From: Alphaproteobacteria bacterium
GTDB taxonomy: Bacteria; Pseudomonadota; Alphaproteobacteria; Futianiales; Futianiaceae
NCBI GenBank assembly: GCA_033844555.1
Contig: JAJLJT010000095.1
Coordinates: 1-47,999, forward strand
Direction: 5' to 3'
Length of the DNA: 47,999 nt
Of the stretch, positions 11,302 through 44,437 are shown one piece after another; the first letter of the stretch is position 1; every line of letters begins with the position of its first letter. Below the pieces are notes generated by a model. That model saw only the letters and a list, made by a program, of their open reading frames with translations. It was not told where the DNA came from and did not search any database. Position numbers and translations under genes: made by a program.

Positions 11302-12144
11302 ATGCCCTTTTCCCGCCGCGTCCGCCGCCTCGCCTTCGGTCTCGCCACGCTGGCCGGACGGCCACGCGGCTTCTTCATCCCCTACCGTTACGCAGCCGGC
11401 GCCGATGCGCCCGGCCGCGACGCCTATCCGGAGATCGGGGCCCTGTTCGAGGCCGCGCGCCCGCGCCTTGCGGCATGTCTCGCTGCTTTGGAAGCCCACG
11501 CCGAAGCCTTCGCGCGGATCGGTTCCGCGCCTCCGCCCGCGCCCCGCTGGACCCAGGACTGGTTTCCGACGCTCGACGCCGCCGTCCTCTATCACATGGT
11601 GGCGACGCTTTGCCCCCCGCGCCTTGTCGAGGTCGGTTCCGGGCATTCGACCCGGTTCGCCGTGGCGGCCGTGACGGATGGGGCGCTCGCCACCCGGGTG
11701 ACCGCGATCGACCCCGCACCGCGTGCCGACATCGCGGCCCTGCCGCTCACCCTGCACCGCCTGACCGTTCAGCAGGTTGCGGATGCGCCCTTCGCGGCCT
11801 TGCGGGCGGGCGACATCCTCAGCATCGATTCCAGCCATATACTGATGCCGGGAACGGACGTGGACCGGCTGTTCTCCCGGGTGCTACCGGCCCTACCGGC
11901 CGGTGTGACGGTCCACATCCACGACATCTTCCTGCCAGACGGGTATCCCGAGGACTGGGCGTGGCGTGGTTACAACGAGCAGAATGCGGTGGCCGCCCTG
12001 CTTGCCGGGGGGGGATGGGACGTCCTGTGGGCCAGTCATTACGCCGCCACGCGCATGGCTGCAGAGGTCGCCGAAAGCATCGTCGGGCGGCTTCCCCGGG
12101 CGGCCGGGGCGCGGCCGGCCAGCCTTTGGCTCCGGAAGCGCTGA
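11302..12144 (+). CDS. Class I SAM-dependent methyltransferase (Methyltransf_24-like)
   Basis: LVEVGSGHST, AIDPAP, LSIDSSH, HIHDIFLP and YNEQ motifs. Start approximate. Confidence 0.8.
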   Translation: MPFSRRVRRLAFGLATLAGRPRGFFIPYRYAAGADAPGRDAYPEIGALFEAARPRLAACLAALEAHAEAFARIGSAPPPAPRWTQDWFPTLDAAVLYHMVATLCPPRLVEVGSGHSTRFAVAAVTDGALATRVTAIDPAPRADIAALPLTLHRLTVQQVADAPFAALRAGDILSIDSSHILMPGTDVDRLFSRVLPALPAGVTVHIHDIFLPDGYPEDWAWRGYNEQNAVAALLAGGGWDVLWASHYAATRMAAEVAESIVGRLPRAAGARPASLWLRKR

Positions 12145-12274
12145 GGCCCCGGCTTCACCTTTTCGCGCGCGGTAACGTTTCCGGGCCAGCAAGCGGGCGC
12201 GCACGTCCTATATTTGCTGGAACGACGACACCGGACGGCCGCCGCCGGCGGGACTCCAGCGCGAAGGATACGGG

Positions 12275-13615
12275 ATGCGCAGGTTTCTCCACTTCCTGAT
12301 CGGCGCCCCGCCGGAGGGCGAGCTTCCAGCCCGCGTGCGCGAAGACGTGGCGCGGCAGCAGAACGACAGCGAGATCCTGATCGGTTGGGTGCTGCTGTTC
12401 CTCGTATCGGTGCTGGGCGTGCTTTATGGGGTCGCTCCCAAGGCGTTCGACGAGTCCGCTCCCTTCGAGCCGGTTCCCGTGGTGATCGCGACCCTCGGCG
12501 CGCTGGCTGCCGTGCGGCTTTTGCTCGCCTACCTCGGTGCGCTGCCGCGCCTTCTTCTGGCGCTGAGCGTCATCGCGGAGGTGGGTTTGCTGATCGGTCT
12601 GATCTGGAGCTTTCACATCCAGTATGGCCAGCCGCCCGGATTCTATCTCAAGGCGCCGACCATGCTTTATCTCTTCGGCATCCTCGCCCTGCGCGCGCTC
12701 CGCTTCGAGGCCGCCTATGTGCTGCTTGCCGGGGTGATCGCTGCGGCCGGGTGGGCGTGGCTCGTCTGGTACGCTGTATCCGGCATGGCGATCGGCGACC
12801 CGATCACGCGCGATTTCGTGGAGTACATGACGTCCTACCGTGTCCTGCTGGGCGCGGAGTTCGACAAGATCCTCGCGATCCTGATGGTCACGGGCGTGCT
12901 CGCCCTCGCCATCGTGCGTGCCAATCGCCTGCTTGTCCGTGCCGCTGCACAGGGGCATGCAGCACGCGATCTCTCCCGGTTCTTCGCGCCCGAGGTGGTA
13001 ACGCGGATCACCGGGGCGGAAGACCGGATCGCCGCGGGCGAGGGCGAGATGCGCGAAGCGGCGATCCTGCTTGTCGATATCCGCGGGTTCTCGACGCTGG
13101 CCGCCGAATGGCCGCCCGCTCGCACCATGCGCGTGCTCGCCGAATACGAAGCGCGCATGGTGCCGCTGATCCGCGGCCATGGCGGCGTGGTGGACAAGTT
13201 CATGGGGGACGGCATCCTCGCCACATTCGGTGCCGCGAGGATCAGCGAAACCCCAGCAGCCGACGCGGTTTCCGCAGCGGTCGCCGTGGCGGACGCGGCC
13301 GCCTTCTGGGGGCGGGAGCGGCGCGAGGCCGGAGAGCCCGTGCTGGAAATCGGCGTCGGTGTCGCTTCGGGCCCCGTCGTGTTCGGGGCGGTCGGGCATG
13401 ACGAGCGTCTCGAGTACACGGTGATCGGCGCCGCGGTGAATCTCGCGGCGAAGCTGGAAAAGCACAACAAGGTGCTGCACACCCGTGCGCTCACGGATGC
13501 CGCGACGCTGGCGCTTGCCCGCGCGCAGGGCTGGACCGGGCAGCCCCTGCGAACGGTTGCGGGCGCGCGCGTCGACGGGCTCGACCGCGCCGCGGATCTC
13601 GCGGTGCTGGCCTGA
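12275..13615 (+). CDS. Membrane-anchored class III adenylate/guanylate cyclase
   Basis: About 6 hydrophobic segments, then LLVDIRGFST, DKFMGDGILATFG, GVGVASG and EYTVIGAAVNLAAKLE. Confidence 0.92.
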   Translation: MRRFLHFLIGAPPEGELPARVREDVARQQNDSEILIGWVLLFLVSVLGVLYGVAPKAFDESAPFEPVPVVIATLGALAAVRLLLAYLGALPRLLLALSVIAEVGLLIGLIWSFHIQYGQPPGFYLKAPTMLYLFGILALRALRFEAAYVLLAGVIAAAGWAWLVWYAVSGMAIGDPITRDFVEYMTSYRVLLGAEFDKILAILMVTGVLALAIVRANRLLVRAAAQGHAARDLSRFFAPEVVTRITGAEDRIAAGEGEMREAAILLVDIRGFSTLAAEWPPARTMRVLAEYEARMVPLIRGHGGVVDKFMGDGILATFGAARISETPAADAVSAAVAVADAAAFWGRERREAGEPVLEIGVGVASGPVVFGAVGHDERLEYTVIGAAVNLAAKLEKHNKVLHTRALTDAATLALARAQGWTGQPLRTVAGARVDGLDRAADLAVLA

Positions 13616-13677
13616 CGAGAGCGGGCGGACGCCGCAGCCCTGCCGGGTGCAGGCCCTACCGGGTACGGCGAGCGGCG

Positions 13678-14835
13678 TCAGGCATAGGGATCCGCCGCAT
13701 CCCGCAGTCCGTCGCCCAGGAAGTTGAACGCCAGCACCACGATGATGACCGGGATCATCGGCGCCATCAGCCAGGGATAGACCGTGACGACCGTCAGGTT
13801 CTGCGCCTCGTTCAGCAGCACGCCCCAGGAGACGGCGGGCCGTTTCAGGCCGAGGTTCAGGAAGGACAGCGCCGTCTCGCCCAGGATCATGGTCGGGATC
13901 GACAAAGTTGCCGACGCGATGAGGTGGCTCGTGAAGCCCGGCAGCAGGTGGCGCGCAATGACGCGGCGCGGCTTCGCCCCCATCAGCACCGCGGCGGTCG
14001 CGTAATCCTCCTCGCGCAGCGACAGCAGCTTCGAACGCACCGCGCGCGCCAGCCCCGGCCAGTCGAGCAGGCCCAGGATGACCGTGATGCCTATGTAGAT
14101 CAGCACCGGACTCCAGGTCACGGGCAGTGCCGCCGACAGCGCCATCCACATCGGCAGTTCCGGCAGCGAACGCAGGATCTCGATCACCCTCTGTATGGCT
14201 GCATCGACCAGCCCGCCGAAATACCCGGCCATACCGCCCAGCACGATGCCGAGCGTCAGGCTGATCGCGACGCCGATCAGGCCGACGGTCAGCGAAATTC
14301 GCGCCCCGTAGACGATTCCCGAAAAGAGGTCGCGGCCCAGCCGGTCGGTGCCGAGCAGGAACAGCGTGCCCCCCTGCGGCGCGCAGACAAGCCGGAAGCG
14401 CGCCTCGAACAGCCCCCAGAATTGGTAGGGCCCGCCCTGGCAAAAGAAACGCAGGGGCTGCGGCGAGGTTCGGTCCGTCCGGTATTCCCAGCGGAAGTTC
14501 TCCAGATCCGGTTCGGCGATCATCGGGTAGGTGAAGGGTCCGATGAACCGGCCCTCGTGAAACAGGTGAACGCCCTGCGGCGGTGCGTAGAGATGCGCGT
14601 TGTCGCGCGCATTGGGCGTGTAGGGCGCGATCGCCTCCGCGAACGGCACGGTCAGGTAGATCAGCAGGAGCAGGACGCCCGACCACAGCGCGACCCGGTG
14701 GCGCTTGAACCGCCACCACATCAGCGTCCATTGCGAGGCGCGGTAATACCGCTCCTGTTCCGGTGTCAGGACGTCGTCCCGCCCCGGCTCGAAGGGGGCC
14801 GGGTCGACGTAGTGCGTCAGCTTTTCCCCGCTCAT
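13678..14835 (-). CDS. ABC importer permease (OppC/DppC type)
   Basis: LLGTDRLGRD, GARISL, EAA-like loop, HLLP and ETALSFL. Confidence 0.93.
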   Translation of the reverse strand: MSGEKLTHYVDPAPFEPGRDDVLTPEQERYYRASQWTLMWWRFKRHRVALWSGVLLLLIYLTVPFAEAIAPYTPNARDNAHLYAPPQGVHLFHEGRFIGPFTYPMIAEPDLENFRWEYRTDRTSPQPLRFFCQGGPYQFWGLFEARFRLVCAPQGGTLFLLGTDRLGRDLFSGIVYGARISLTVGLIGVAISLTLGIVLGGMAGYFGGLVDAAIQRVIEILRSLPELPMWMALSAALPVTWSPVLIYIGITVILGLLDWPGLARAVRSKLLSLREEDYATAAVLMGAKPRRVIARHLLPGFTSHLIASATLSIPTMILGETALSFLNLGLKRPAVSWGVLLNEAQNLTVVTVYPWLMAPMIPVIIVVLAFNFLGDGLRDAADPYA

Positions 14836-15857
14836 CGCGTGCGCCCCCCGTCCAGCCGGATGCGCGGATCGAGAACCGCGAGCAGAAGGTCGGAGATCAG
14901 CATTCCGACCAGCGTCAGGACCGCCACGAACAGCAGGATGAAGCCTGCTAGGTACTGGTCCTGCGACTGCAGCGCGCCCAGCAGGATCGGCCCTACCGTC
15001 GGCAGGTTCAGTACGACCGACACGATGACCGAACCGGAAACGAGTTGCGGCAGCAGGTTTCCGATGTCCGCGATGAACGGGTTGAGCGCCATGCGCAGCG
15101 GGTACTTCATCAGCAGCTTGCGCTCACCGAGGCCCTTGGCACGTGCCGTCGTGACATAGGGCTTGCGCAACTCGTCGAGCAGGTTGGCCCTCAGCCGCCG
15201 GATCATTGCGGCGGTACCGGCGGTGCCGATCACGACGGTCGGCACGATCAGATGCGCGAGCACCGACCCCAGCTTGGCGAGGCTCCACGGCTCCCCGATG
15301 TACTCGGGCGCCATCAGCCCGCCGACGGACAGGCCGAACCAGGCGTTTGCGTAGTAAAGCAGGATCAGCCCAAGGAGGAAGTTGGGCGTCGCGAGGCCCA
15401 GGTAGCCGATCAGCGTGATGCCGTAGTCGCCCCAGGAATATTGCCGCGTCGCCGAGTAGATCCCGATGGGGAAAGACACGATATAGACGAACAGGACGGT
15501 CGCGAGGTTCAGCACGATGGTCAGCAGGACGGTCTGTCCGACCACGTCGGTCACGGGCCGGTCATACTCGAACGACCAGCCGAAATTGCCCTGCAGGATT
15601 CCACTGAAACCGTTGGGACCGGGCAGCGCGCCCACCCAGATCAGGTAGCGTTCCAGAAAAGGGCGGTCGAGCGCAAACTCGTTGCGCAGGAACTCCAGTT
15701 TCGCGACCGACGCGCTCTCGCCCTGCGCCTGCAATTCCGCAATCTGGTTGGACAGATAGTCGCCGGGCGGAAGCTCGATGACCAGGAACATCAGCAGCGA
15801 AACGACGATGAGCGTCGGGATCATCGTCAGCAAGCGGCGCACGACATAGGCCCCCAT
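14832..15857 (-). CDS. ABC importer permease (OppB/DppB type)
   Basis: YVVRRLL, LPPGD and PYVTTARAKGL. ATGA overlap with the next gene. Confidence 0.93.
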   Translation of the reverse strand: MGAYVVRRLLTMIPTLIVVSLLMFLVIELPPGDYLSNQIAELQAQGESASVAKLEFLRNEFALDRPFLERYLIWVGALPGPNGFSGILQGNFGWSFEYDRPVTDVVGQTVLLTIVLNLATVLFVYIVSFPIGIYSATRQYSWGDYGITLIGYLGLATPNFLLGLILLYYANAWFGLSVGGLMAPEYIGEPWSLAKLGSVLAHLIVPTVVIGTAGTAAMIRRLRANLLDELRKPYVTTARAKGLGERKLLMKYPLRMALNPFIADIGNLLPQLVSGSVIVSVVLNLPTVGPILLGALQSQDQYLAGFILLFVAVLTLVGMLISDLLLAVLDPRIRLDGGRTR

Positions 15858-15909
15858 CAGCGGGCCCTCCGGTGTGCAGGGCCGATCCTGCGTGCCTTCG
15901 CGGTGTGGG

Positions 15910-17876
15910 TCATTGGGTTGCCGGCGCCTCCCCGCTCTCGGGGCCGCTCCTGGGGGCGTCGGTGCGCCAGAAGGTATCCATGCGGAACAGGCCGAAGTGC
16001 GCGCCGGGGTCCCAACCGTAGAAGGCAGTCTCGGGCACGTTGCGCAGGATGTTCGACACCGCCACGGGCTGGGGTATGCCCTGAACCGTGCCGATGGTCA
16101 GCGTCTCCTCGGCATGAATTTCCAGCATCGCGTCCCACGCCGCGGCCTGCGCTTGCCGGGTCGTCGCCGCGTTCCAGTCCTCGTAGAGTGCGAGCAGGCG
16201 CCGGGCCCAATCGGTGTCCGGTTCCTCGCCGCTGGTGCCGCGCGTCTCGTGATACTGGCCCCATTCCGGCCAGGCGAGCATCGCCTGGCTGACCGGGGCA
16301 AGCTCGTCGGGCACCATTTCCGGCGTTGGAATGCCGTTGTCGAAGCCGTCCCACACGGACATGACCAGCTGTCCGGCGAAGGCGCGGTTGCGCATCACGT
16401 CCCGCTGCGAGGACTTCACGAACAGCGCCACCCCGATCTCGCGCCACGTCTCCTCGATCAGCGCCAGCATGTCGACCTGCTCCTGGCTTTCGCCCGCGGT
16501 CTCGACGATGATCTGCAGCGGCCGGCCGTCAGGCATCAGGCGGATCCCGTCGCCGCGCCGCCCGGTGAGGCCGATCTCGTCGAGAAGGCGGTTCGCCTCC
16601 GCCGTGTCGTATCGGCACCAGTCGGACCGGTAGGGCTCCCGCGACAGCGGGCTGCGCGGCAGCGCCGTGTTGTTCGCGGGTGTGCCGAGACCGAAATACA
16701 TCACCCGGTTCAGCATCTCCCGGTCGATGCCCAGCGATAGCGCGTGCCGGAAACGCCGGTCGCGCACCAGCGCCCGCCAGACCGGGTCGGTGACGGTCAT
16801 GTTCGGGTAGAGCGCCATGGCCGATCCCTTGGAGATCGGCCAAAGGTACGTCCGGTAGTTCCCGCCGCGTTCGCCGCGCTTCAGCGTCGTGATGTTGGAG
16901 AAGCCGATGCCGCGGGCCTGCAGGTCGCTTTCGCCTGCGGCAGTCTTGGCCGCGATCAGCCGGCCGTCGGCCACCATCAGCACCAGCCGGTCGATGTAGG
17001 GAAGTTGCCGGCCCTGCGCATCGATCCGGTGGAAATAGGGATTGCGCACGAGAACATAACGCTGCGCCGGCGACTCGGTCGTATTCATCCAGGGTTGCAG
17101 CGTGGGCATCTCCACATTGGAGAAGTCGTACATCTCGTCGGCGCGGTTGTGCAGTGCGGCCCAGTTGCGTACCCGCGCTTCCGCGATCATCCGCTCCAGG
17201 TCCGCCGGATCGCCATAGCGCTCGTGAAACCGCTTCAGATAATGCGCGGGCCGATAGATGAAGGGTGGCCGCGCCTTCGCCAGTTCGGGCAGGAAGGCGG
17301 GGTTGGGAGTGTCCCAGCTGTAGCGGACCGCGGTCTCGGATATCACCTCGAAGCCGGGCAGCTTGCCGTCGGACATGAAGAAAGCCGGCGGGCCGGAGGG
17401 CATCAGGTGCGGGTTGTTCGCCACGTCCTCCCAGTAGTACCGGAAGTCTTCCGACGTGAAGGGTTGTCCGTCCGACCAGCGGTGACCCTCGCGCAGGATA
17501 AGGGTGATGGCCCTGCCGTCGGGACTGACCTCGACAGCCTTCAGGATATCCGGCTTGAGTTCGAGGTCCTCGGTCCAGCCGACCAGCCGCGCATATCCCC
17601 AGACGACGGCGAGGCGCACGTCCTTGGTCCGGCCGATCAGCGTCGTCAGGTCGCCGCCATGGCGTCCGGGCGTCCGGCCCATCGCCGCCATGTCCGTCAC
17701 CAGCGGTTCCGCCGGAACCCGCTCTGCCACCGGGGGCAGGATCGTCGTCGGGTGAGAGCGATTGAGCGTCGGGGTCTCGACGAGGGTGGGTGGGCTTCCG
17801 GTCTCTGCATGTGCGGTCGCACATACCGTGCCGAACGCCAGCAGAAGAATCGCGGTCATACCGGTCAAACCACGCC

Positions 17877-17880
<4 letters not shown>
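15910..17880 (-). CDS. Family 5 ABC substrate-binding protein
   Basis: Signal peptide, LPPVAERVP, LREGHRWSDGQPFTSED and RNPYF..D..G.QLPYID. ATG overlaps the stop of the ATPase gene. Confidence 0.92.
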
Positions 17881-19766
<1,886 letters not shown>

Positions 19767-19808
19767 GGCTAACACACCCCTCGGCGCGTTCACGCGCGCT
19801 TCATGGTG

Positions 19809-21058: not shown

Positions 21059-21071
21059 GGCGTGTCTCTCC

Positions 21072-22229
21072 TCAGTCCGCGGCCGGCGTGCCAATCCGGG
21101 CGCGTACCCACTCGGCGGTGACCTCCGCACCGTCGAGGCGGGCGTCGACCTTCGGCGGCGGCGGTCCGGCGAGTGTCGCATCGATCGCGCGCGCCAGCCC
21201 TGCCGCCTCGATTCCCTTTTCGTGCACCACCGTGACGAGCCGTGCCCGTTCGAAGATCTCGGCGCGTGCTGCCTGCTCGCTTTCCTTGCCGCCCGCGAAG
21301 GGCACGATGACGGCCCGCACGCCGGTCGCCAGCAGGTCCATCATCGTGTTGTAGCCGGCCTGGCTGACCGAAAGCGCGGCATTTGCCAGCAGGCCGCGAT
21401 AGTCGGGCCGGGCCGTCTCCACGATCGTGCCCGGCTGCCGCGCCGCACGCGCGACGAAATCCGCCTGCCAGCGGGGGTCGGCGTTGGATCCCGTCAGGAA
21501 CCGCCAGACGCGGCCGCTCCCGGCGCCAAGTGCATGGGCCGCAAGGGCCGCCTCGAACAGTGCCTGGCCCATTGCTCCGCCCCCGGCGGCGACCACGATC
21601 TCGTCCGCGCCATCCTGCGTTTCGGGCATGCCCTCGCGCGCGACATATCCCGTGTAGACGAGCAGATCGCGAACCTCGGCCGCGGCCGGGTAGCTTGCCT
21701 CCAGCGGGCTGATGCTCTCCACCCCATGCACCAGAACGGCGTCGAAGGCGGCGCGCGCGGTCTCGATGCTCTGCTCGATCCTGAGGGCCTTTGGCGATGG
21801 AATGAGGATATCCCGGACCGAGGAGACAAGCAGCGGCCGCGGCTGCATCGCGTGGATCCGTTCCACGAAAGGTTCCAGTTCGAAGCGCATCTTGTGCCGC
21901 CCGAAGGGAAACAGCTCCGTGATCACCATGTCGGGCCGGGTTTCTTCCAGCGTATCGAGCAGGGCCGCAGTGCGCTTCTGCTTCCAAGCCTCGGTGATGT
22001 CGCGGCCTTCCGCGTCGGCCAGCCCCTTGAAGTCGGCGCCGGTCGCACGCGCCGCGGGAAGCTGGACGAATTGTGCGCACCGTACGTCATGTCCGACCAC
22101 CGGCAGTCCGCCAGCGACGAAGGTCACCGTCAGTCCCACGTCGGTCATGGCCTCGGCGAGGGCGGCGGCGCGGACATAGTGACCGGTGCCGAGAAGATGC
22201 TGCACATAGATGAGGACGCGTCCGGTCAT
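21072..22229 (-). CDS. GT-B glycosyltransferase with GT28-like C-terminal domain
   Basis: VLIYVQHLLGTGH, ELFPFGR, SSVRDIL, SQAGYNT and EQAARA. Confidence 0.88.
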   Translation of the reverse strand: MTGRVLIYVQHLLGTGHYVRAAALAEAMTDVGLTVTFVAGGLPVVGHDVRCAQFVQLPAARATGADFKGLADAEGRDITEAWKQKRTAALLDTLEETRPDMVITELFPFGRHKMRFELEPFVERIHAMQPRPLLVSSVRDILIPSPKALRIEQSIETARAAFDAVLVHGVESISPLEASYPAAAEVRDLLVYTGYVAREGMPETQDGADEIVVAAGGGAMGQALFEAALAAHALGAGSGRVWRFLTGSNADPRWQADFVARAARQPGTIVETARPDYRGLLANAALSVSQAGYNTMMDLLATGVRAVIVPFAGGKESEQAARAEIFERARLVTVVHEKGIEAAGLARAIDATLAGPPPPKVDARLDGAEVTAEWVRARIGTPAAD

Positions 22230-22837
22230 GTGGTCTGCCTGGGCTCCAGCGGAATATTGGCCTCGACCAGCGCGATGGAGCCTTGCGCGTCGAGGCTGAA
22301 GAGGTGGAGGGCCGCACTGTCGAGGCGGATGGGAGGTTTGTGCGTCATGTCCCAGCCGGTCGCAAGGGCCAGCGCCGCACGCAGCACGCCCTTGTGCGTG
22401 ACGACGAAGGCGCTCGTGCGTGCAGCGCCCAGCTCGGCCAGAAGGTCCGAAAGACGCGCCATGACCTCCCGGGGGCGTTCGCCGCCTGGCGGCGCGAGTT
22501 CGAGCCCGCGCGCTTCCGCTGCCGCCATGCCCTCGGGGTCGGCCGCGCGCAGATCCGACAGCCGCTTGCCTTCCCACGCGCCCCAATCGGTCTCGATCAG
22601 CCGGGGATCGGTTTCGATGTGGCCGGACCAAAGCTGGCTTGCCGTTTCGACAGCGCGGGCGAGCGGACTGGACAGGCAGCGTTCCGCGGCTGCGATCCGG
22701 GTTGGAAGCCTCAGCCTGCCGAGCGCGGCCTTGGACTCGCGCAGCAGTGGAACGTTCTGGCGCCCCTGGATCAGGCCGGACGCGTTCCACGCGGTCGGGT
22801 AGTGCCGCATCAGCGCGATCCAGCCTGCCTCGGTCAT
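22226..22837 (-). CDS. Histidine phosphatase (phosphoglycerate mutase-like) family protein
   Basis: RH..T.WN, SSPLARAVETA, E.DWGAWEG, PPGGE and VTHKG. Confidence 0.9.
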   Translation of the reverse strand: MTEAGWIALMRHYPTAWNASGLIQGRQNVPLLRESKAALGRLRLPTRIAAAERCLSSPLARAVETASQLWSGHIETDPRLIETDWGAWEGKRLSDLRAADPEGMAAAEARGLELAPPGGERPREVMARLSDLLAELGAARTSAFVVTHKGVLRAALALATGWDMTHKPPIRLDSAALHLFSLDAQGSIALVEANIPLEPRQTT

Positions 22838-23943
22838 GCCGCTCTCCTGTTCGCGCGGACTGCTGCCAGGCAGCGGTCGAGGCGTTCGGCGGCCCGGTCG
22901 AGATCCCGCGTGTCGCGGATCTCGGCTGTTGCCGCCTTCGCCATGGCGATGCGTTGGTCCGTATGCATCATGAGCCGGGCGAGCGCCGCCGCATAGGCCT
23001 CTCCGGACTGGGCGGTCAGACAGCCGGTATGGCCATGCCGGATGACCGAGGACGGGCCCGGGCCGTCGAGCGCGACGGGCACGGCGCCCGCGGCTTGCGC
23101 CTCCAGATAGACCATGCCGTAGGCTTCGCCGACCCCGGGCCACGCGAGGAGGTCTGCCTCCCGGTAGTGCCGGGCGAGCGCCTCCGTCCCTGCCGCGCCG
23201 GCGAAGCGCACACGCGGCCCGAACGGTGCGAACAGCGCCTCGACCCGGGCGCGCGCCGGGCCGTTCCCGACGATCGTGAGACGCCAGTCGGATTCTGCAA
23301 GGCGGCCGAGCGCGCTGGCCAGCAGCCGATAGCTTTCGAGCTTCGCGCCCTCTCGCATCATGCCCACGGCGAGCAGCCGTGCCGGTCCGTCCTCTTGCGC
23401 CCTCCGCCTCCCGCCGATGAAGGGCGACGCGTCGAGAAAGGGCGGGAAGTCATGAATCCTTTCATCGTCCATGACGCGGCCGAGGCAGGCGCGGTCGAGC
23501 GGCGTCATCGCCAGCACTGCCGAAGCCTGGCGCAGTGCTGCGACGACCGCGCGCTCCGACGGGGCCCAATGGTCCTTGAGCCGCTTCGGAGCGTGGCTCG
23601 CCTCGGCCACCACATAGGGGATGGACAACGCCCGCGCGACAGCGGGCCCGACCAGGTCGGGTGCACGGTAGTAGAGGTGATAGGTCAGCCATACCGAGGG
23701 GCGCGGCATACTCCGTCCCGCAATGTCTCCCAGGACCCGGGCGGCCTCCGCTGCACCCGCCGCGGCCATGGCCGCCTGATCGCGCGGGTTCCCATGCCGC
23801 AGCCAGGTGCGCAGGCGGCTTGCGACCGTCCCGGTATGGCCGGCGCGCGTGAGCGCCGCCAACAGCAGGCGCGCCATCGTGCGGTCGCCCGAGGGGACCG
23901 GGTGGTCCGGATCCTTCATCGGGGCATGGAAGGCGACGTGCAT
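22834..23943 (-). CDS. Family 4 glycosyltransferase
   Basis: PMKDPDHPVPSGDR, TYHLYYRAPD and the EX7E motif EAYGMVYLE. Confidence 0.9.
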   Translation of the reverse strand: MHVAFHAPMKDPDHPVPSGDRTMARLLLAALTRAGHTGTVASRLRTWLRHGNPRDQAAMAAAGAAEAARVLGDIAGRSMPRPSVWLTYHLYYRAPDLVGPAVARALSIPYVVAEASHAPKRLKDHWAPSERAVVAALRQASAVLAMTPLDRACLGRVMDDERIHDFPPFLDASPFIGGRRRAQEDGPARLLAVGMMREGAKLESYRLLASALGRLAESDWRLTIVGNGPARARVEALFAPFGPRVRFAGAAGTEALARHYREADLLAWPGVGEAYGMVYLEAQAAGAVPVALDGPGPSSVIRHGHTGCLTAQSGEAYAAALARLMMHTDQRIAMAKAATAEIRDTRDLDRAAERLDRCLAAVRANRRAA

Positions 23944-25265
23944 CAGTGTCCTTCCGCTGTCCGCGCGGGCAGCGTTTCCGCGAACCGCCGGGCCAGGCGT
24001 GCGATCCCTCCCTCCATCGAGAACTGGCTGCGCACCCGCGCCTCCCCGGCCTCGCCGAGCCTGCGCGCCAGGTCCGCATCGCCAAGTACGCGGGCGACCG
24101 CACCGGCCAGCGCGCGCGGGTCGTCGGGCGGAACCAGGAGGCCTGTCTCGCCGTCGCGCACCAGTTCCGGGATGGCCGCCACGGCCGTCGCGATGACGGG
24201 CACGCCCTGACTTTGCGCCTCCATCAGCACATTGGGCAGGCCGTCGCGGTCGCCGTCCCGGGCGACGCGGCTTGCCAGCACGAACACGGCCGCGTTGCGC
24301 AGCGTCTCCAGAACTTCTGCCTGGGGCTGGGCGCCCCGCCAATCGCACCGTGCAGCGATGCCGAGGCGGTCCGCCTGCCGCTTGAGCGCCGGGAGCAGCG
24401 GCCCTCCGCCGATGTGGACGAATCGCCAGTCGAGGCCGACGGGCAGACGCGCCAGCGCGTCGAGGATCGTATCGAGCCCCTTCTTCGCAACGGCGCGGCC
24501 GACGCAGACGATGGCTGCTGGTCCGGGCAGGCGATGGCGGCGGTGCGGACCGAACCGGGCGAGGTCGAGTCCGTGATAGACCAGATCCACGGAGTCCGGT
24601 TCGGGGGCCAGCATGCGCAGCCGCTGCGCGCCATAGGCCGTGCAGGTCGTGCCCCAGGACGCGTCGGCCAGCTTTTCCGCGATCTCCCAGTCGGGCGTCG
24701 TCCAGATATCCTTGGCATGGGCCGAGTAGGACCAGGTCAGACCGCGCAGTATGGCCGTGTAGCGCGCCACGGACGCAGGTGTGTGCAGGAAGTGGACGTG
24801 CAGATGCCGGACGTTCCCGGGCAATTCCGCGGCGAGCACGCAAGCCTGGCCGAAGCGGCGGATGCGGTTGCGCGTGACGTCGCGCGCGAGGTCGCGCCGC
24901 CACGCCGAGCGCGCTTCGCGCCACCCGGGCAGGCGGCGGGCCGCCGCGACGCTCCGCAGCACGCGCAGCGGTTCCTCGTGCAGGTATTCCGGCAGGTAGA
25001 GGACCGGGGCGTCGATCGCGGCATGCACGGGGTGTGTGGCGGGATCCGTGGGGTGGCGCAGCGAGACGATGCGCTGGTCGAGGCCAAGGCGTTGCAGCGC
25101 CAGGATTTCCTGCGCGATGAAGGTCTCGGACAGGCGGGGGTAGCCCTTCAGAACGACGGCCACCGCGCCGCGGTCCTCCAGCCGGACCCCGGCAGGGGCG
25201 CCAGCTTGCGGGGCGGCGGTCACCGCTGGCGGTGCGGTGGGCCGGGCGGCAGCCCTACTCGCCAT
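23943..25265 (-). CDS. Family 4 glycosyltransferase (WcaL-like)
   Basis: YPRLSETFIAQE, HVHFLH, SAHAKDIW, VGRAVAKKG and DGLPNVLMEA. Confidence 0.9.
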   Translation of the reverse strand: MASRAAARPTAPPAVTAAPQAGAPAGVRLEDRGAVAVVLKGYPRLSETFIAQEILALQRLGLDQRIVSLRHPTDPATHPVHAAIDAPVLYLPEYLHEEPLRVLRSVAAARRLPGWREARSAWRRDLARDVTRNRIRRFGQACVLAAELPGNVRHLHVHFLHTPASVARYTAILRGLTWSYSAHAKDIWTTPDWEIAEKLADASWGTTCTAYGAQRLRMLAPEPDSVDLVYHGLDLARFGPHRRHRLPGPAAIVCVGRAVAKKGLDTILDALARLPVGLDWRFVHIGGGPLLPALKRQADRLGIAARCDWRGAQPQAEVLETLRNAAVFVLASRVARDGDRDGLPNVLMEAQSQGVPVIATAVAAIPELVRDGETGLLVPPDDPRALAGAVARVLGDADLARRLGEAGEARVRSQFSMEGGIARLARRFAETLPARTAEGH

Positions 25266-26517
25266 GGCTGGCGACGGCGCGCAGCCGCGCGGGCTGCATG
25301 CGGCGGCAGCCGAGCCACGGCTCGATCAGCCTGTTCACGCTGTCGAAGCCGTCGAGCAGGCCCGGCACGACCGTCTCCGACGGGCGGGGCTGGGACGGCA
25401 GGCGGGCCAGCGCGTCCGCCATCTGCTGCGGATCGCGGCGTGGACCGCCCTGCGTGTGCATCCGTCCCTCCAGGGGATCGACCAGCATCTCGACGAGGCC
25501 GAGCTGGCGTGCCCGGTCGGCGCGGATGAACTGCTCCAGCCTCGGCGTCGTGCGCGGCACGATCAGCGCCCTCTTGTCGAGCGTCAGGATCTCGCAGAAC
25601 GTGTTGTAGCCGCCCATGGCCACGATGCCCACGGCATCGGCGAGCAGGTACTCGATCCGGCTGTCGAAGGTGATCGCCTCGACGTTTTCCAGCGCCTCGG
25701 CGCGGGCGAAAAACTCCTCCTGCCTCTCGGCGGCCATGAAGGGCCCCAGCACGAGCAGCGCAGGATGCGGGATGGCCGCACCCGATTCATAGGCTGACAA
25801 TACCCAGTCGATCAGGCCCTCGCCGTCGCCACCGCCTCCCGTTGTCACCAGCAGAAAGGGCTCGTTCGTGATCGCCGGACGCGCAGCGACCGAGGTGTGT
25901 TCCGGCAGCGGGCGCGGCAGATAGCCCGTGTAGACGATCCGTTGGCGCATCGCGGCAGAGAGGTTCAGACCCTTGAGAGGCTCGTGGATCTGCGGCAGGC
26001 CATAAACCCAGATCTCGTCGTAGAAGGCTTCCAGCGCCGGTAGCGACCTCTTGCGCTCCCACTCCGGGGCCAGCACCGCGGGCTCGTCGAGAACGTCCCG
26101 CACGCCAAGGACGATCCGTGTCCCGCGCGCCTTCAGCAGCTTCAGCGTCGGCTCGACCTCGCCGCGCAGGCCCAGCGGTTCCTTGTCGACGATGAACACG
26201 TCGGGGTCGAAAACGTCGGCCGTGTGCTCGATGATCGACTGGCGCAAGGCGACCGTCTCGTCGATGTCGAGGTGCAGAGACAGCGACGTGTACTCGCCGT
26301 TCCTGAGCTTGATGACCCCTGGAATGCGCACGAAATCCACGCGCGCCCGGAAATCGAAGCTGCCGATGATCGGCGAGCCGGAAAGGATCAGGACGGACAG
26401 GTTCTTGTGACGTGCCACAAGGTCGTGCGCGATCGCCCGGCACCGGCGCAGATGGCCAAGGCCGAACGTGTCATGGCTGTAGATCAGTACACGCGACCCG
26501 CTCTCGGCCGAGGGCAT
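25255..26517 (-). CDS. GT-B glycosyltransferase with GT28-like C-terminal domain
   Basis: VLIYSHDTFGLGHLRR, VDKEP, GVRDVLD, TTGGGGDG, MGGYNTFCEIL and EQFIRA. Confidence 0.88.
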   Translation of the reverse strand: MPSAESGSRVLIYSHDTFGLGHLRRCRAIAHDLVARHKNLSVLILSGSPIIGSFDFRARVDFVRIPGVIKLRNGEYTSLSLHLDIDETVALRQSIIEHTADVFDPDVFIVDKEPLGLRGEVEPTLKLLKARGTRIVLGVRDVLDEPAVLAPEWERKRSLPALEAFYDEIWVYGLPQIHEPLKGLNLSAAMRQRIVYTGYLPRPLPEHTSVAARPAITNEPFLLVTTGGGGDGEGLIDWVLSAYESGAAIPHPALLVLGPFMAAERQEEFFARAEALENVEAITFDSRIEYLLADAVGIVAMGGYNTFCEILTLDKRALIVPRTTPRLEQFIRADRARQLGLVEMLVDPLEGRMHTQGGPRRDPQQMADALARLPSQPRPSETVVPGLLDGFDSVNRLIEPWLGCRRMQPARLRAVASHGE

Positions 26518-26662
26518 CCCACTCTCCCAAGGTTTGCCTTGGCTATCTTTGCTCGTACTATGGCACGCTTGGCGGGGCAGATTCCACAAGTTCGCATTGG
26601 TATCTGCATAGCGCACGTGAAATCGTGCCATTCTGATCCAGGCAACGGGCAGAACAGATCAT

Positions 26663-29440
26663 ATGGACGCCAACCTTTTCAGATACATATGGCGTCATTC
26701 GCGTCTCGAGCAGCTCGCTGTTCTGGTGCTCGTTCTCGTGTCTCTGCCGTTTTATTTCATTTCCCTCGACCTGCCCCGCAACATCGTCAACGAAGCGATT
26801 CAGGGCCGCGGGTTCGGGCCGAGCGACCCCACGCAACCGTTTCTCGCGCTCTCGCTGCCGCTCCCCGATGCGCTTGGCGGCAGTCTCCTGCTGTTCGAGG
26901 GCATCCCCCTGGAGCGTGTGCCCTACCTCTTCGCGCTGAGCGGGATGTTCCTGCTGATGGTGTGCGTCAACGGCTGGTTCAAATACCGAATCAACACGCA
27001 CAAGGGCCGGATGGGCGAGCGGATGCTGCGCCGCCTGCGATTCGACCTGTTCGACCGGATCCTGCGCTTCCCGGCGCCGCACTTCCGAAAGGTCAAGCAG
27101 GCCGAGCTCGCCACGATGATCAAGGACGAGGTGGAACCGCTGGGCGGTTTCATCGGAGAAGCGTTCGCCCAGCCCATCTTCCAGGGCGGCATGGCGCTGA
27201 CCGCCATGACCTTCATTCTGGTTCAGAGCTTCTGGTTGGGCATCGTCGCGGCGGGGGTCGTGGGGATACAAGCCTTCATCATCCCGCGCCTGCGCGTACC
27301 GATTCGCATGTTGGGCCGCCAGCGCCAGCTGGAGACGCGCCATCTCGCGGGGCGCATCGCCGAGATCGTGGACGGCGTCACGGAGGTACACACGAACGAT
27401 ACCTCGACCTGGGAGAGGGCGGAGATCACCCACCGGCTCGGGCGCATCTTCTGGATCCGGTACGAAATCTACCAGCGCAAGTTTTTCGTGAAGTTCCTCA
27501 ACAACTTCCTCGCGCAGGTCACGCCCTTCCTCTTCTATGCAATCGGCGGTTATTTCGCGATCCGCGGCCAGCTGGACGTGGGCCAGCTCGTCGCGGTCCT
27601 CGTCGCCTACAAGGATCTGCCGCCGCCGATCAAGGAACTCATCGACTGGGACCAGCAGCGCCTCGACAGCCAGGTAAAGTACGAGCAGGTGGTCGAGCAG
27701 TTCGACGCGGCTCTGGCCGACGCTGAGTTGCAGGACCCGACGCGCCATCGCGCCGCGCCGCTGGAAGGACCTATCGTCTTCCAGCGCGTCACGGCCGCCG
27801 ACGACGCCCTGGACAAGGTTCTGGACGGGGTCAGCGTGGAACTGCCGATGGATGCCTCCGTCGCCGTCGTGGGAACCGGAACCGGTCCGCATGCCTTTGC
27901 CCAGGCGCTCGTCCGCCTGCAGCCGCTCCTGTCAGGCCATATCGACATCGGCGGGGAACCGCTCTCCCGAATGCCGGAAGCGGTGCTGGGGCGCCGCGCA
28001 GCCTATGTCGCGCAGGACGCCTTCCTTTTCCCCGGTACGCTCCGGGACAATCTGCTCTACGCCCTGCGGCATCGCTTCATCGGGAACGAGCCGACGTCGG
28101 CAGACTGGAAGGCGGAACGCGCCGAGGCGCGCCGGTCCGGAAATGCGCCCTTCCCGGTCGCCGGAAACTGGATCGACCTCGCGGAGGCCGGTGTCGACAG
28201 CGAGGAGGCGCTGACCGACCGGCTCATCGAGGTGCTGGAAACCGTGCAGCTCGAAACGGAGGTGTATCACCTCGGGCTGCGCGGCCGGATCGATGGAAGA
28301 ATGCAAGGGGAAGCCGCAGAGGCAATCCTGCGCACCCGCGCAGCCGTTCGCGAAGCGCTGGACGCCGACGAGAGGCTGCGTGGGCTCGTGGAGCCGTTCG
28401 ACCCAGCGCACTACACCGGAAATGCGACGATCGCAGAGAATCTCCTGTTCGGTGTGACGCGCGATGCGACCTTCGCGCGCGGCGAGGATATCGATGTGCC
28501 CGAGGCCGCGGCGTTGCCGGGCAACCGGTATCTCGTGTCCGTCTTGCGCGAGCAGGGCCTCGAGGACGATCTGGTCCGCGTCGGCGAACGGATCGCCGAG
28601 ACGATGGTCGAGATCTTCGCGGGCCTGCCTGCGGGAGACCCATTCTTCGAACAGTTCAGCTTCATCGCCGCCGAGGATCTTCCGGTGTTCGAGCAGATCC
28701 TTGTCCGGGTGCGCCGCGACGGCATGACGGGACTGCCCGAGGAGTCGAGGTTACGGCTGCTGTTCCTGTCCTTCGACTATATCGAGGCGCGCCACCGCCT
28801 TGGTCTTCTGGACGACGATCTTCGCCGGCGCATCGTGCGCGCCCGCCAGGCCTTTCACGACGGCCTCCCGGACGACCTGCGCGGCGCCATCGAGGTCTAC
28901 GATCCCGATCGGTACACCCAGGCCGCGAGCCTCATGGACAACATCCTTTTCGGCCGCGTCGCCTATGGCCAGAGCGAGGCGCGCCCCCGCATCGACGCCC
29001 TCGTCTCCGACATTCTCGAGCGCGAGGGGGTGCGCCGCATCGTGCTGGAGGCCGGTCTGGAAACCGAGGCCGGATACGGAGGGCGCAGACTTCCTGCCCA
29101 CCAGCGACAACGCCTGGCGCTCGCGCGGGCGCTTCTGCGCCGGCCGGATCTCCTGATCATCGATGATGCCCTGGCGGTGGTCGACGCGCGGCTCGAGCGG
29201 GATATCCTCGAAACAGTGCTGGAGAGCCGCCGCGGCAAGGGGACGCTGGTGGTTCTGGGCCGGGTCGAACGTGTCAGGCTGTTCGACCGGGCAGTGGTGT
29301 TCGACGGGACCGACCTGGTGGCCAGCGGCCGGGTGGAGGCGTTGGCGGCAGAGGGCCCGCTTGCGGATCTGCTGTCCGGCCGCGAGTCCGAGGGGGGCGG
29401 TCCCCCAGAAAGTGAGGAGACAGCCGATGAGCCTCAATGA
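26663..29440 (+). CDS. ABC exporter-like protein (TMD plus degenerate, internally repeated NBD)
   Basis: N-terminal exporter-type TMD and Q-loop AYVAQD. Walker A, signature and Walker B are altered and the NBD carries a ~300-aa insertion. Confidence 0.88.
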   Translation: MDANLFRYIWRHSRLEQLAVLVLVLVSLPFYFISLDLPRNIVNEAIQGRGFGPSDPTQPFLALSLPLPDALGGSLLLFEGIPLERVPYLFALSGMFLLMVCVNGWFKYRINTHKGRMGERMLRRLRFDLFDRILRFPAPHFRKVKQAELATMIKDEVEPLGGFIGEAFAQPIFQGGMALTAMTFILVQSFWLGIVAAGVVGIQAFIIPRLRVPIRMLGRQRQLETRHLAGRIAEIVDGVTEVHTNDTSTWERAEITHRLGRIFWIRYEIYQRKFFVKFLNNFLAQVTPFLFYAIGGYFAIRGQLDVGQLVAVLVAYKDLPPPIKELIDWDQQRLDSQVKYEQVVEQFDAALADAELQDPTRHRAAPLEGPIVFQRVTAADDALDKVLDGVSVELPMDASVAVVGTGTGPHAFAQALVRLQPLLSGHIDIGGEPLSRMPEAVLGRRAAYVAQDAFLFPGTLRDNLLYALRHRFIGNEPTSADWKAERAEARRSGNAPFPVAGNWIDLAEAGVDSEEALTDRLIEVLETVQLETEVYHLGLRGRIDGRMQGEAAEAILRTRAAVREALDADERLRGLVEPFDPAHYTGNATIAENLLFGVTRDATFARGEDIDVPEAAALPGNRYLVSVLREQGLEDDLVRVGERIAETMVEIFAGLPAGDPFFEQFSFIAAEDLPVFEQILVRVRRDGMTGLPEESRLRLLFLSFDYIEARHRLGLLDDDLRRRIVRARQAFHDGLPDDLRGAIEVYDPDRYTQAASLMDNILFGRVAYGQSEARPRIDALVSDILEREGVRRIVLEAGLETEAGYGGRRLPAHQRQRLALARALLRRPDLLIIDDALAVVDARLERDILETVLESRRGKGTLVVLGRVERVRLFDRAVVFDGTDLVASGRVEALAAEGPLADLLSGRESEGGGPPESEETADEPQ

Positions 29441-29894
29441 AGAGGTCGAAATCCTCAAGAAGATCCCGCTGTTCCAGAATTTCGAGCCAGCCAAGCTCAA
29501 GCTTCTGGCATTCGCGAGCGAGCGGATCCGCTTCGACGCGGGCCAAACCGTGTGCCGCCAGGGCGACCCGGGAGACGCCGCCTATGTCATCATTTCCGGC
29601 GAAGCGGACATCCTCGTCGATGGACCCGACGGGCCGATCCAGGTCGCCACCGTCCGCGATCACGGATTCATCGGAGAGATCGCCATCCTGATCGACGTGC
29701 CCCGGACTGCGACAATCCGCGCGCATACGGAGTTGGTGGCGCTGCAGATCAAGAAGGATCTTTTCTTTAGGATGGTGCGCGAATATCCCGGCGTCGCGGT
29801 CGAGGTCATGCGCGAACTGGCCCAGCGGCTGGAGCGCACGACCTCGGAGTTGACCCGCGTGCGTGCAGAGTTGAACCGGCTGACGGCGAAGTGA
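29427..29894 (+). CDS. Stand-alone cyclic nucleotide-binding domain protein
   Basis: LKKIPLF, QGDPGDAAYVI and the phosphate-binding cassette GEIAIL..VPRTAT. No HTH. GAGGAG RBS and 14-nt overlap with the exporter gene. Confidence 0.92.
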   Translation: MSLNEEVEILKKIPLFQNFEPAKLKLLAFASERIRFDAGQTVCRQGDPGDAAYVIISGEADILVDGPDGPIQVATVRDHGFIGEIAILIDVPRTATIRAHTELVALQIKKDLFFRMVREYPGVAVEVMRELAQRLERTTSELTRVRAELNRLTAK

Positions 29895-33930: not shown

Positions 33931-34056
33931 TCCGTTTGGCCCCCGCCCGTTGACAGCCATTCGCGCGATTCATGCGCCGCGTCCAAAGATGATCTATTAT
34001 AACAAACCTGCTTTCGCCACGCGCAGCGGCAATTCAAGGCCAAGGATGTTCCGTGC

Positions 34057-44334: not shown

Positions 44335-44437
44335 GCGAGACTGCGGCCGCGGGACTTGAACGGGGCGGCGGGAGCCCCATGCTAGGGACACCCCGGCAGG
44401 CGTGCCGAGGGGCGGCAGGCAAGGAGCAGGCACAGGC

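What the first reader, a model, noticed from the sequence alone, without database searches (positions are those of the whole stretch)
11302..29894. Candidate cyclic-nucleotide-linked glycoside synthesis, export and re-import system
Seen: a tightly coupled minus-strand operon (GT, GT4, GT4, His-phosphatase, GT, deacetylase-fold protein, membrane protein, ABC ATPase, SBP, two permeases) with many 1-11 nt overlaps. Divergent from it are an exporter-like ABC protein and a cNMP-binding protein. Convergent at the far end are a methyltransferase and a membrane cyclase. There is no Wzx/Wzy/Wzc, priming glycosyltransferase or nucleotide-sugar gene, so it is not a standard EPS/LPS locus. A biosynthetic operon encoding its own importer is unusual. 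Inference: the cell makes a small modified glycoside, exports it, recaptures or senses it, and couples this to a local cNMP signal, either as a signalling loop or as a periplasmic osmolyte cycle. I recall similar uncharacterised clusters in rhizobia but cannot verify this here. This is the best candidate for an undescribed system.
Basis: partly seen in the sequence, partly recalled or inferred. Interest (0 to 1): 0.85.

Follow-up and report, generated by a model that had tools for sequence, protein, structure and literature searches.

The report
cAMP-sensor-docked envelope glycan export locus
This widespread gene cluster is a variant of the Sinorhizobium 'PPP' locus that shields cells from an antibiotic: it likely builds an unidentified cell-envelope sugar chain, likely moves it out through a pump that has lost its usual ATP-splitting motifs and is predicted to carry a docked cyclic-nucleotide sensor, and probably takes the product back in.

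Summary
The 15 genes are real, at the stated coordinates, with 7 of 10 operon junctions overlapping. The cluster is conserved: the exporter occurs in 98 of 301 alphaproteobacterial genomes and 93 of the 94 genomes with this SBP have it. It is not undescribed: 12 genes are orthologs of S. meliloti smb21252-smb21271, the 'PPP' cluster (Travin 2023), whose glycosyltransferases, deacetylase and exporter protect against phazolicin while the importer does not. The product is unknown. Three PPP-required genes are missing here, so this is a variant. New here: the exporter's ATPase motifs are degenerate in 99 of 99 homologs, and its 300-residue insertion is predicted to dock the cNMP protein (score 0.63, controls 0.00; fused in 6 of 88 loci). 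Published Tn-seq rows fit cAMP control that bypasses Clr. The window's cyclase is a detachable satellite (linked in 25 of 50 genomes), so the signalling-loop reading is weak. This scan noted the cluster before in 8 other genomes.

The parts
11302..12144 (+). SAM-dependent methyltransferase (Methyltransf_24), accessory; no predicted TM segment
   Evidence: in 20 of 88 exporter loci; other methyltransferase families stand in elsewhere (Methyltransf_17 in 46 of 88, FkbM in S. meliloti)
12275..13615 (+). Membrane class III nucleotide cyclase, 5-6 TM; D268, K308, D312, T382, N389 invariant, transition-state Arg replaced by invariant K393; satellite, not the ortholog of the rhizobial cluster cyclase
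   Evidence: about 30% to rhizobial cyclase over the catalytic domain only; 56 of 301 genomes, 50 with exporter, 25 within 30 kb
13678..14835 (-). Importer permease (OppC-like); ortholog of SMb21263
   Evidence: 61%
14832..15857 (-). Importer permease (OppB-like); ortholog of SMb21262
   Evidence: 54%
15910..17880 (-). Family-5 solute-binding protein with signal peptide; nearest solved relatives 5IPW and pectin-binding SPH1118; ortholog of SMb21261
   Evidence: (49%)
17877..19766 (-). Importer ATPase, two NBDs (alternative GTG start 19793); ortholog of SMb21260
   Evidence: 56%
19809..20303 (-). Small membrane protein with a likely bacterial PH-like domain; function unexplained
   Evidence: 51 of 88 loci; bPH_6 hit in one homolog and an Atlas lead; no PDB hit
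20300..21058 (-). CE4-like carbohydrate deacetylase, motifs intact; ortholog of SMb21253
   Evidence: (40%)
21072..22229 (-). COG4671/GT28-like GT-B glycosyltransferase; ortholog of SMb21266
   Evidence: (39%)
22226..22837 (-). Histidine phosphatase (R11, H12, R61, E82, H148 invariant); not in the S. meliloti cluster
   Evidence: 62 of 88 loci; no match in L019
22834..23943 (-). GT4 glycosyltransferase; ortholog of SMb21252
   Evidence: 44%
23943..25265 (-). GT4 glycosyltransferase; ortholog of SMb21265 (redB)
   Evidence: 54%
25255..26517 (-). COG4671 GT-B glycosyltransferase, GT1/MurG-like fold with invariant H22; ortholog of SMb21264 (redA)
   Evidence: (50%)
26518..26662 (.). Divergent intergenic region with short conserved words that look like back-to-back sigma-70-type promoter elements
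   Evidence: dyad counts up to 23 of 69 against about 2 expected; the consensus scan found no promoter
26663..29440 (+). Type IV ABC half-transporter, 925 aa, degenerate NBD split by an insertion of about 300 residues that is the predicted dock for the cNMP protein; ortholog of SMb21269
   Evidence: (47-50%)
29427..29894 (+). Stand-alone cyclic-nucleotide-binding protein, 155 aa, intact phosphate-binding cassette, no HTH; ortholog of SMb21270
   Evidence: (52%); adjacent or fused to the exporter in 85 of 88 loci

Best explanation
[quoted passage not shown] Steps: (1) four cytoplasmic GT-B enzymes, a deacetylase, a phosphatase and a methyltransferase assemble a short modified sugar chain on a small or lipid acceptor (genes shown; chemistry inferred). 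(2) The type IV ABC protein carries it across the inner membrane (needed for protection in S. meliloti: published; direction and cargo inferred). Its NBD lacks the canonical catalytic set (shown), so transport is inferred to be weakly ATP-driven or facilitated. (3) The cNMP protein docks on the NBD insertion (predicted; fusions shown) and is inferred to restrain the transporter until cAMP binds. (4) Any nearby or chromosomal cyclase supplies the cNMP (inferred). (5) The family-5 importer retrieves the product or its fragments; it is dispensable for protection (published) but co-inherited (shown). My odds by step: PPP orthology 0.97; envelope-protective glycan 0.7; sensor binds exporter 0.8; ATPase dead or crippled 0.7; importer recycles the product 0.6; cAMP relieves inhibition 0.4.
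For: Orthology: tblastn positions in pSymB match the published coordinates of SMb21252, 21264, 21265, 21266, 21269. Tn-seq with phazolicin: GTs, deacetylase, dehydrogenase, lyase and exporter log2FC -3.5 to -5.4 at all three doses, FkbM -4.1 and -4.0 at the two higher doses; importer genes -0.41 to +0.53, not significant. NBD: 0 of 99 homologs keep Walker A Lys+Ser/Thr, Walker B Asp+Glu and switch His together, 0 of 99 have the exact signature; same picture in 120 others. Complex: score 0.63, best of 3 controls 0.00; that mark was reached by 116 of 157 solved and 2 of 215 mismatched pairs; runs agree in at least 95% of contacts, partner pLDDT at least 80; interface at exporter 647-665, 711-714, 768-771 and sensor 1-6, 22-42. 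Six of 88 loci and Azospirillum oryzae fuse the two. cyaA is the most depleted gene at the top dose (-2.6/-3.9/-5.05), clr is flat (0.33/0.18/0) and smb21270 trends positive (+1.1/+1.5/+3.1). SBP co-occurrence 93 of 94 and 93 of 98; stacking Trp kept in 52 of 53, two Arg in 53 and 49 of 53.
Against: No product has been isolated anywhere I could read; 'polysaccharide' is the authors' speculation. Three of nine genes required in S. meliloti (dehydrogenase, lyase, FkbM) have no ortholog in this locus; the dehydrogenase was not found at E<=1e-130 in G000, G001 or G002 and none of the three matched as orthologs in G000, which is 81% complete, so the product may differ. The smb21270 trend is not significant (adjusted p 0.26, 5 TA sites), and the isolated cyaA mutant was only 2-fold more sensitive. 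The type IV fold also includes importers (IrtAB, YbtPQ), so direction is not shown. Most SPH1118 ligand residues (Arg57, Arg438, Arg496 and others) are not kept. The importer is annotated as a peptide transporter (optAD). With bleomycin, GT mutants are depleted but exporter, lyase and FkbM mutants are not, which export alone does not explain.
Confidence: 0.6

Rival explanations
1. The product is a small periplasmic osmolyte-like glycoside (GT plus phosphatase, as in glucosylglycerate or mannosylfructose pathways) cycled out and back like an osmoregulated periplasmic glucan.
For: Intact His phosphatase in 62 of 88 loci, with glucosyl-3-phosphoglycerate phosphatase among its solved relatives; COG4671 fold nearest to small-acceptor GT1 enzymes, CalG1 Z 25.4, rmsd 3.9, 342 aligned; an MscS-family gene flanks the S. 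meliloti cluster; lower osmotolerance of R. etli opt mutants is recalled, not read.
Against: A polysaccharide lyase is required in S. meliloti; the phosphatase is absent there; MurG is nearly tied in the fold search (Z 23.0) and first by sequence profile; distant COG4671 loci carry an alginate-export porin or alginate lyase.
Confidence: 0.2
2. The enzymes glycosylate a membrane lipid or LPS precursor, and the ABC protein acts as an ATP-poor flippase for that glycolipid.
For: MsbA-type fold; MurG is the best profile hit of the COG4671 pair; 21 conserved basic against 11 acidic positions in the membrane domain; no priming transferase or polymerase; flipping needs no strong ATP drive (inference).
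Against: A dedicated periplasmic SBP and a periplasmic-type lyase imply a soluble product or fragment. Conserved basic residues were not mapped to the cavity.
Confidence: 0.2
3. The degenerate ABC protein is not the carrier but a regulator or scaffold (SUR-like), or the dead half of a heterodimer whose active half is encoded elsewhere.
For: All catalytic motifs are degenerate; best structural matches include heterodimers (TmrAB, TM287/288); exporter mutants lack the bleomycin phenotype of GT mutants.
Against: No second half-transporter recurs among neighbours of 88 loci; the membrane domain is the more conserved part (0.69 against 0.58 for the NBD core).
Confidence: 0.2
4. One reading: a secreted glycoside is sensed through the SBP or the membrane cyclase and feeds back through cNMP as a signal.
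For: A cyclase of some kind lies within the fetched stretch in 21 of 71 and 15 of 47 full-length loci, against about 5% expected from the 6 cyclases in G000; at least three cyclase architectures occur.
Against: Importer insertions are neutral under phazolicin; the cyclase with its MBL neighbour detaches and occurs in 6 genomes without the exporter; it has no large periplasmic domain; no transcription factor is in the operons; kin share synteny, so the enrichment is overstated.
Confidence: 0.1
5. The importer is an ordinary oligopeptide transporter that merely sits in the operon.
For: Named optAD / PepT in R. leguminosarum; 5IPW, annotated OppA, is the top PDB hit; peptide-uptake defects of R. 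etli opt mutants are recalled from Vos 2007, which I could not read.
Against: 93 of 94 genomes with this SBP have the exporter even when the genes lie far apart; classical peptide SBPs score E>=1e-10 against 1e-78 for SPH1118; the stacking Trp reported as poorly conserved in 5IPW is kept; opt mutants in that operon could be polar on redA/redB (inference).
Confidence: 0.1

Closest known systems
S. meliloti 1021 PPP cluster smb21252-smb21271 (Travin et al. 2023, PMC10128002)
   Same: 12 orthologs at 39-61%: four GTs, deacetylase, four importer genes, exporter, cNMP protein make 11 by tblastn, and a cyclase gene occupies the cluster as a functional twelfth (not an ortholog); no Wzx/Wzy.
   Different: No SMb21256 dehydrogenase, SMb21259 lyase, SMb21271 FkbM, MBL or DUF3095 in this locus; adds a His phosphatase, a PH-like membrane protein, a Methyltransf_24 and a different, membrane-bound cyclase; gene order differs (divergent exporter).
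Rhizobium red/opt locus (R. leguminosarum 3841 pRL110046-056; R. etli opt operon, Vos 2007, title and one citing sentence seen)
   Same: Same importer, redA/redB-type GTs, exporter and cNMP gene; exporter pRL110047 and dehydrogenase pRL110056 needed in nodules, optAD loss advantageous in the rhizosphere (tag-to-gene mapping inferred from gene order).
   Different: Described as a peptide importer; no glycan product or exporter-sensor link in the passages read.
Cyclic beta-1,2-glucan export (Cgs/NdvB with NdvA/ChvA/Cgt)
   Same: Type IV ABC half-transporter moving a periplasmic glycan without Wzx/Wzy; Cgt 7ZNU matches at Z 24.4, rmsd 3.3, 399 aligned. Works-like analogy.
   Different: No large membrane synthase; four soluble GT-B enzymes; NBD degenerate with an insertion; cNMP partner; linked importer.
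Cyclic enterobacterial common antigen and LpqY-SugABC trehalose recycling (both recalled, not tested)
   Same: An amino-sugar envelope glycan that supports the permeability barrier; an importer that salvages the cell's own envelope sugar.
   Different: ECA uses Wzx/Wzy and a priming transferase; no sequence relationship was tested.
SPH1118 pectin-binding SBP of Sphingomonas A1 (PMC9314435)
   Same: Same cluster-C subgroup (E 2e-78); Trp594, Phe592, Arg294, Arg466 have equivalents.
   Different: Arg57, Arg438, Arg496, Glu505 have none; ligand not pectin by inference.

Membership tests
S. meliloti PPP cluster | Four GTs (SMb21252, 21264, 21265, 21266), deacetylase SMb21253, exporter SMb21269 | tested here: met
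S. meliloti PPP cluster | Nucleotide-sugar dehydrogenase SMb21256 | tested here: not met
   absent from the locus; best G000 hits 35%; no match at E<=1e-130 in G000, G001, G002; WecC/TviB-like paralogs lie on other contigs (named by eye)
S. meliloti PPP cluster | Lyase SMb21259 and FkbM methyltransferase SMb21271 | tested here: not met
   no tblastn hit in G000 (81% complete) or in 88 loci; present in a few rhizobial loci only
S. meliloti PPP cluster | Protects against phazolicin | not testable with these tools
   needs mutants
Canonical type IV ABC exporter (MsbA, NdvA, PglK) | Six-helix exporter membrane domain fused to an NBD | tested here: met
   model pLDDT 89; Z 28.4, and NBD core rmsd 2.2 over 244 residues to TAP1
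Canonical type IV ABC exporter (MsbA, NdvA, PglK) | Walker A Lys-Ser/Thr, signature, Walker B Asp-Glu, switch His (textbook motifs, recalled) | tested here: not met
   window protein has none by pattern; 0 of 99 homologs have the full set; Ser/Thr 1 of 99, Asp 10 of 99
Canonical type IV ABC exporter (MsbA, NdvA, PglK) | ATP hydrolysis drives export | not testable with these tools
   needs an ATPase assay
Wzx/Wzy or Wzm/Wzt polysaccharide pathway | Priming phosphoglycosyltransferase, flippase or Wzm/Wzt, polymerase, co-polymerase in the locus | tested here: not met
   no such Pfam or NCBIfam hit; none recurs among neighbours
Cyclic beta-glucan (OPG) system | Large membrane glucan synthase Cgs/NdvB | tested here: not met
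   all four GTs are 369-440 aa with no predicted TM segment
cNMP-binding receptor | Phosphate-binding cassette Gly-Glu...Arg-Thr-Ala | tested here: met
   G83 76, E84 74, R93 76, T94 74, A95 76 of 76 homologs
CRP/Clr transcription factor | C-terminal HTH domain | tested here: not met
   155 aa, only cNMP_binding hit
Class IIIb adenylate cyclase | Two metal Asp, Lys and Thr specificity pair, Asn | tested here: met
   invariant in 15 of 15
Class IIIb adenylate cyclase | Transition-state Arg | tested here: inconclusive
   Lys in 15 of 15; activity unknown
Oligosaccharide-binding family-5 SBP (SPH1118 type) | Stacking aromatic and basic cleft residues | tested here: inconclusive
   4 equivalents conserved, the other listed ligand residues not
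HetC / peptidase-containing ABC exporter with CNB domain | C39 peptidase domain | tested here: not met
   no such Pfam hit

The most novel reading that the evidence does not exclude
A family of ATPase-dead type IV ABC proteins acts as a cAMP-gated glycan exporter: a family-specific insertion in the NBD docks a stand-alone cNMP receptor that holds the carrier shut until cAMP binds, giving about a third of sampled Alphaproteobacteria a post-translational, CRP-independent cAMP switch on an unidentified protective envelope glycan that is then recycled by its own importer.
Probability: 0.35. Interest if true: 0.82.

Novelty: new variant of a known kind. Interest (0 to 1): 0.6.

Why it matters
The cluster is carried by about a third of the sampled Alphaproteobacteria and its rhizobial counterpart affects antibiotic tolerance and nodule life, yet the molecule is unknown. 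Alphaproteobacteria often have many cyclases and few known receptors (recalled). A stand-alone cNMP receptor docked on a transporter would be a direct cAMP output and would explain why cyaA but not clr matters under phazolicin. An ABC exporter that has traded its ATPase motifs for a second-messenger dock would be a new way of running this fold. All of it can be tested in S. meliloti 1021, where mutants and a simple read-out exist.

Tried and rejected
Window cyclase as the ortholog of the rhizobial cluster cyclase: rejected, about 30% over the catalytic domain only; the true ortholog is on G000 C298. Universal uronate donor: not supported, SMb21256-type dehydrogenase in 40 of 301 genomes, mostly not tied to the cluster. 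MBL neighbour as a cNMP phosphodiesterase: not shown, only RNase Z/ELAC1 hits; it is in 138 of 301 genomes and its S. meliloti ortholog has no phenotype. Exporter insertion: Atlas gave only hypothetical clusters; self-BLAST found no internal repeat; I did not fold it alone, so its fold is untested. Small membrane protein: no solved relative. COG4671 single sequence: no PDB hit; deacetylase profile: none. No meaningful repeats, promoters or terminators by the scans; no CRP-like palindrome among top dyads. Synechocystis sll1722-26 (EPS-linked GT cluster, passage read) is a recalled look-alike with no sequence test. Literature searches found no paper giving the product's structure or an exporter-sensor interaction; the library lacks most subscription papers. 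Perry and Newman 2019 and Vos 2007 were not held. A word search of earlier scan notes for the docking idea returned nothing. No sequencing-run search was made, so expression is untested.

Full report
Observation. The window is 66-71% GC and is contig C95 of G000, an 81% complete genome. The closest labelled relative of the exporter is from Futiania mangrovi at 87%. The minus-strand run from 26517 to 13678 has 7 overlaps (11, 1, 4, 4, 4, 4, 4 nt) and 3 gaps (13, 42, 52 nt). The exporter and cNMP genes overlap by 14 nt. Only the SBP has a signal-like segment; the four GTs, deacetylase, phosphatase, methyltransferase and cNMP protein have no hydrophobic segment by a simple hydropathy scan.

Conservation. 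The first GT matched 15 of 41 relatives. I fetched the 10 best other genomes and all 10 have the same order from cNMP gene to second permease. In 301 genomes drawn evenly from the class, the exporter was found in 98, the SBP in 94, both in 93, the window-type cyclase in 56. For the 88 further exporter loci (20 kb or to the contig end), a cNMP domain was adjacent or fused in 85, both GT4 genes present in 63, the SBP in 48, the phosphatase in 62, the cyclase ortholog in 16, this methyltransferase in 20; among the 71 full-length loci, 42 of the 51 with the GTs also had the SBP. All six long exporters are fusions to a cNMP domain, as is the Azospirillum oryzae protein. A scan of named genomes gave 806 stretches, of which 80 were kept; they include rhizobia, Rhodobacterales and Betaproteobacteria, in several gene orders, with the cNMP gene in 47 of 47 full-length loci. 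Genomes are related, so these counts are not independent.

What is known. Plasmid searches led to Rhizobium and Sinorhizobium. On pSymB of strain 1021 the window's proteins match at 39-61%, at coordinates equal to those printed for SMb21252, 21264 (redA), 21265 (redB), 21266 and 21269 in Data Set S1 of Travin et al. 2023, PMC10128002 (I read passages, section 12 part 1 and supplement rows). The authors call smb21252-smb21271 the PPP cluster and speculate that it makes an uncharacterised surface polysaccharide that shields against phazolicin. Insertion mutants of two GTs were 8-fold more sensitive. Nine genes were depleted: four GTs, deacetylase, nucleotide-sugar dehydrogenase, lyase, exporter, FkbM. 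The four importer genes, MscS, MBL and DUF3095 were neutral. Seven of the nine rise under Myxococcus attack (PMC10315480, passages). Eight cluster genes, including two importer genes, and cyaA are in a symbiosis gene list (PMC7268258, supplement rows only, files 13 and 14 not searched, possible row offset). In R. leguminosarum the exporter and dehydrogenase are needed in nodules and optAD loss helps in the rhizosphere (bioRxiv 2020.05.07.082560, passages, supplements closed). The Clr-controlled polysaccharide cluster ends at smb21248, next door (PMC5498481, passages). Vos 2007 on the R. etli opt operon was seen only as a title and one citing sentence; Perry and Newman 2019 only through Travin's sentence. 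Six of the nine required genes have orthologs in the window. The dehydrogenase, lyase and FkbM do not, so I call this a variant, not a member.

The exporter. The model is confident (pLDDT 89) and has the type IV ABC fold; NBD-only structures align over about 220-245 residues, leaving roughly 300 residues inserted in the NBD. In 120 database homologs Walker A Lys is followed by Glu or Asp in 107, Walker B Asp is Asn in 101, the switch His is kept in 24. In 99 homologs from my loci none keeps the full catalytic set and none has the exact signature. As a control, 4 of the 7 other G000 proteins that it hit had all three patterns and the other 3 lacked one each; the window protein lacked all three. 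I folded residues 350-912 with the cNMP protein using 77-row alignments from the same genomes. Score 0.63, best control 0.00; the mark was reached by 116 of 157 solved complexes and 2 of 215 mismatched pairs, counts that hold only roughly for my alignments; runs agreed in at least 95% of contacts; partner pLDDT at least 80. The interface is on the insertion (647-665, 711-714, 768-771) and on the sensor's N-terminal helices. Those exporter positions are more conserved than the rest of the insertion (0.82 against 0.57), which is partly circular because the model saw the alignment. No solved structure with this insertion appeared in the fold searches, so a pass from memory is less likely, though not excluded. 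The sensor's nucleotide pocket is intact.

The cAMP link. In Travin's table cyaA is depleted -2.6, -3.9, -5.05 with phazolicin and flat with bleomycin, the same pattern as the exporter; clr and cyaD1 are flat. The sensor gene smb21270 moves the other way, +1.1, +1.5, +3.1, not significant with 5 TA sites. This fits a sensor that inhibits the exporter until cAMP binds; it is my reading of their rows, not their claim, and the isolated cyaA mutant shifted the MIC only 2-fold. The window's cyclase keeps the metal, specificity and Asn residues, with Lys for the catalytic Arg. It is not the ortholog of the rhizobial cluster cyclase. Fifty of its 56 genomes have the exporter; 25 have it within 30 kb, 3 far on the same contig, 22 on another contig. 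Some cyclase lies in 21 of 71 and 15 of 47 full-length loci against about 5% from G000's density (cyclase-rich genomes would give a higher baseline). So a cyclase is a frequent, replaceable satellite, while the sensor is a fixed part.

The importer. The SBP's nearest solved relatives are 5IPW (E 1e-79) and the pectin binder SPH1118 (E 2e-78), then the galactoside binder 6EPY (E 5e-20); classical peptide binders score far lower. Of the SPH1118 ligand residues (PMC9314435, passages) the stacking Trp, the adjacent aromatic and two Arg have conserved equivalents; the rest do not. With 93 of 94 co-occurrence and no role in protection, salvage of the cluster's own product is the simplest reading. 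The peptide-importer label in Rhizobium stands against it.

The product. The COG4671 enzyme folds like inverting GT1 enzymes, with MurG close behind; two GT4 enzymes, an intact deacetylase and phosphatase complete the line. SMb21256 scores nearer to UDP-HexNAc than UDP-glucose dehydrogenases, and a lyase is required, which suggests an amino-uronate chain in rhizobia; neither gene is general. Chain length and acceptor are therefore open: short soluble glycan, osmolyte-size glycoside or glycolipid.

Verdict. Real, widespread, already named and phenotyped in rhizobia, chemically unknown, and noted by this scan in 8 other genomes (I had reached the PPP paper before that look-up; the red/opt lead and the prompt to examine the odd exporter came from it). 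Searches found no paper stating these points; subscription papers and closed supplements could hold them. Interest 0.6; new variant of a known kind.

Noticed in passing
window 33247-33960 (-): An OmpR-type response regulator is the commonest other neighbour of the cluster (19 loci), usually next to the MBL gene. It may be CenR, the envelope regulator (recalled, not tested); SMc03820 had no phazolicin phenotype.
   Followed up: partly
G011, G041, G079, G218, G068, G163, G279: The window-type cyclase and an MBL-fold hydrolase stay adjacent when far from the exporter or in genomes without it: a separate cyclase/putative phosphodiesterase module.
   Followed up: partly
L040:8998-19005: An E. coli plasmid carries a distant version: GT28, two GT4, ABC protein, two phosphotransferases, an alginate-export porin and a nucleotide-sugar dehydrogenase; 10 Escherichia records matched.
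   Followed up: no
L041:12016-25047: Manganitrophus plasmid version with alginate lyase, kinases, radical SAM protein and His phosphatase.
   Followed up: no
L019 (pSymB 828467-829812): The cluster cyclase of S. meliloti 1021 is in two pieces and is annotated as truncated, so cAMP there must come from another cyclase.
   Followed up: partly
L174:16197-17375; L017:4325-5527: DUF3095 recurs beside rhizobial versions (9 of 80 loci); by eye it resembles a cyclase-type fold (not tested).
   Followed up: no
PMC7268258 supplement files 4 and 5: The length column is shifted by one gene against file 3, so gene-level symbiosis scores there may be offset.
   Followed up: no
window 44402-46033 (+): Acetyltransferase-like N-terminus fused to a carbon-nitrogen hydrolase domain (for the hydrolase; the first domain by eye).
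   Followed up: no
G053 (L127, L130): Two exporter paralogs: one with the GT and importer operon, one standing with a cNMP gene only.
   Followed up: no
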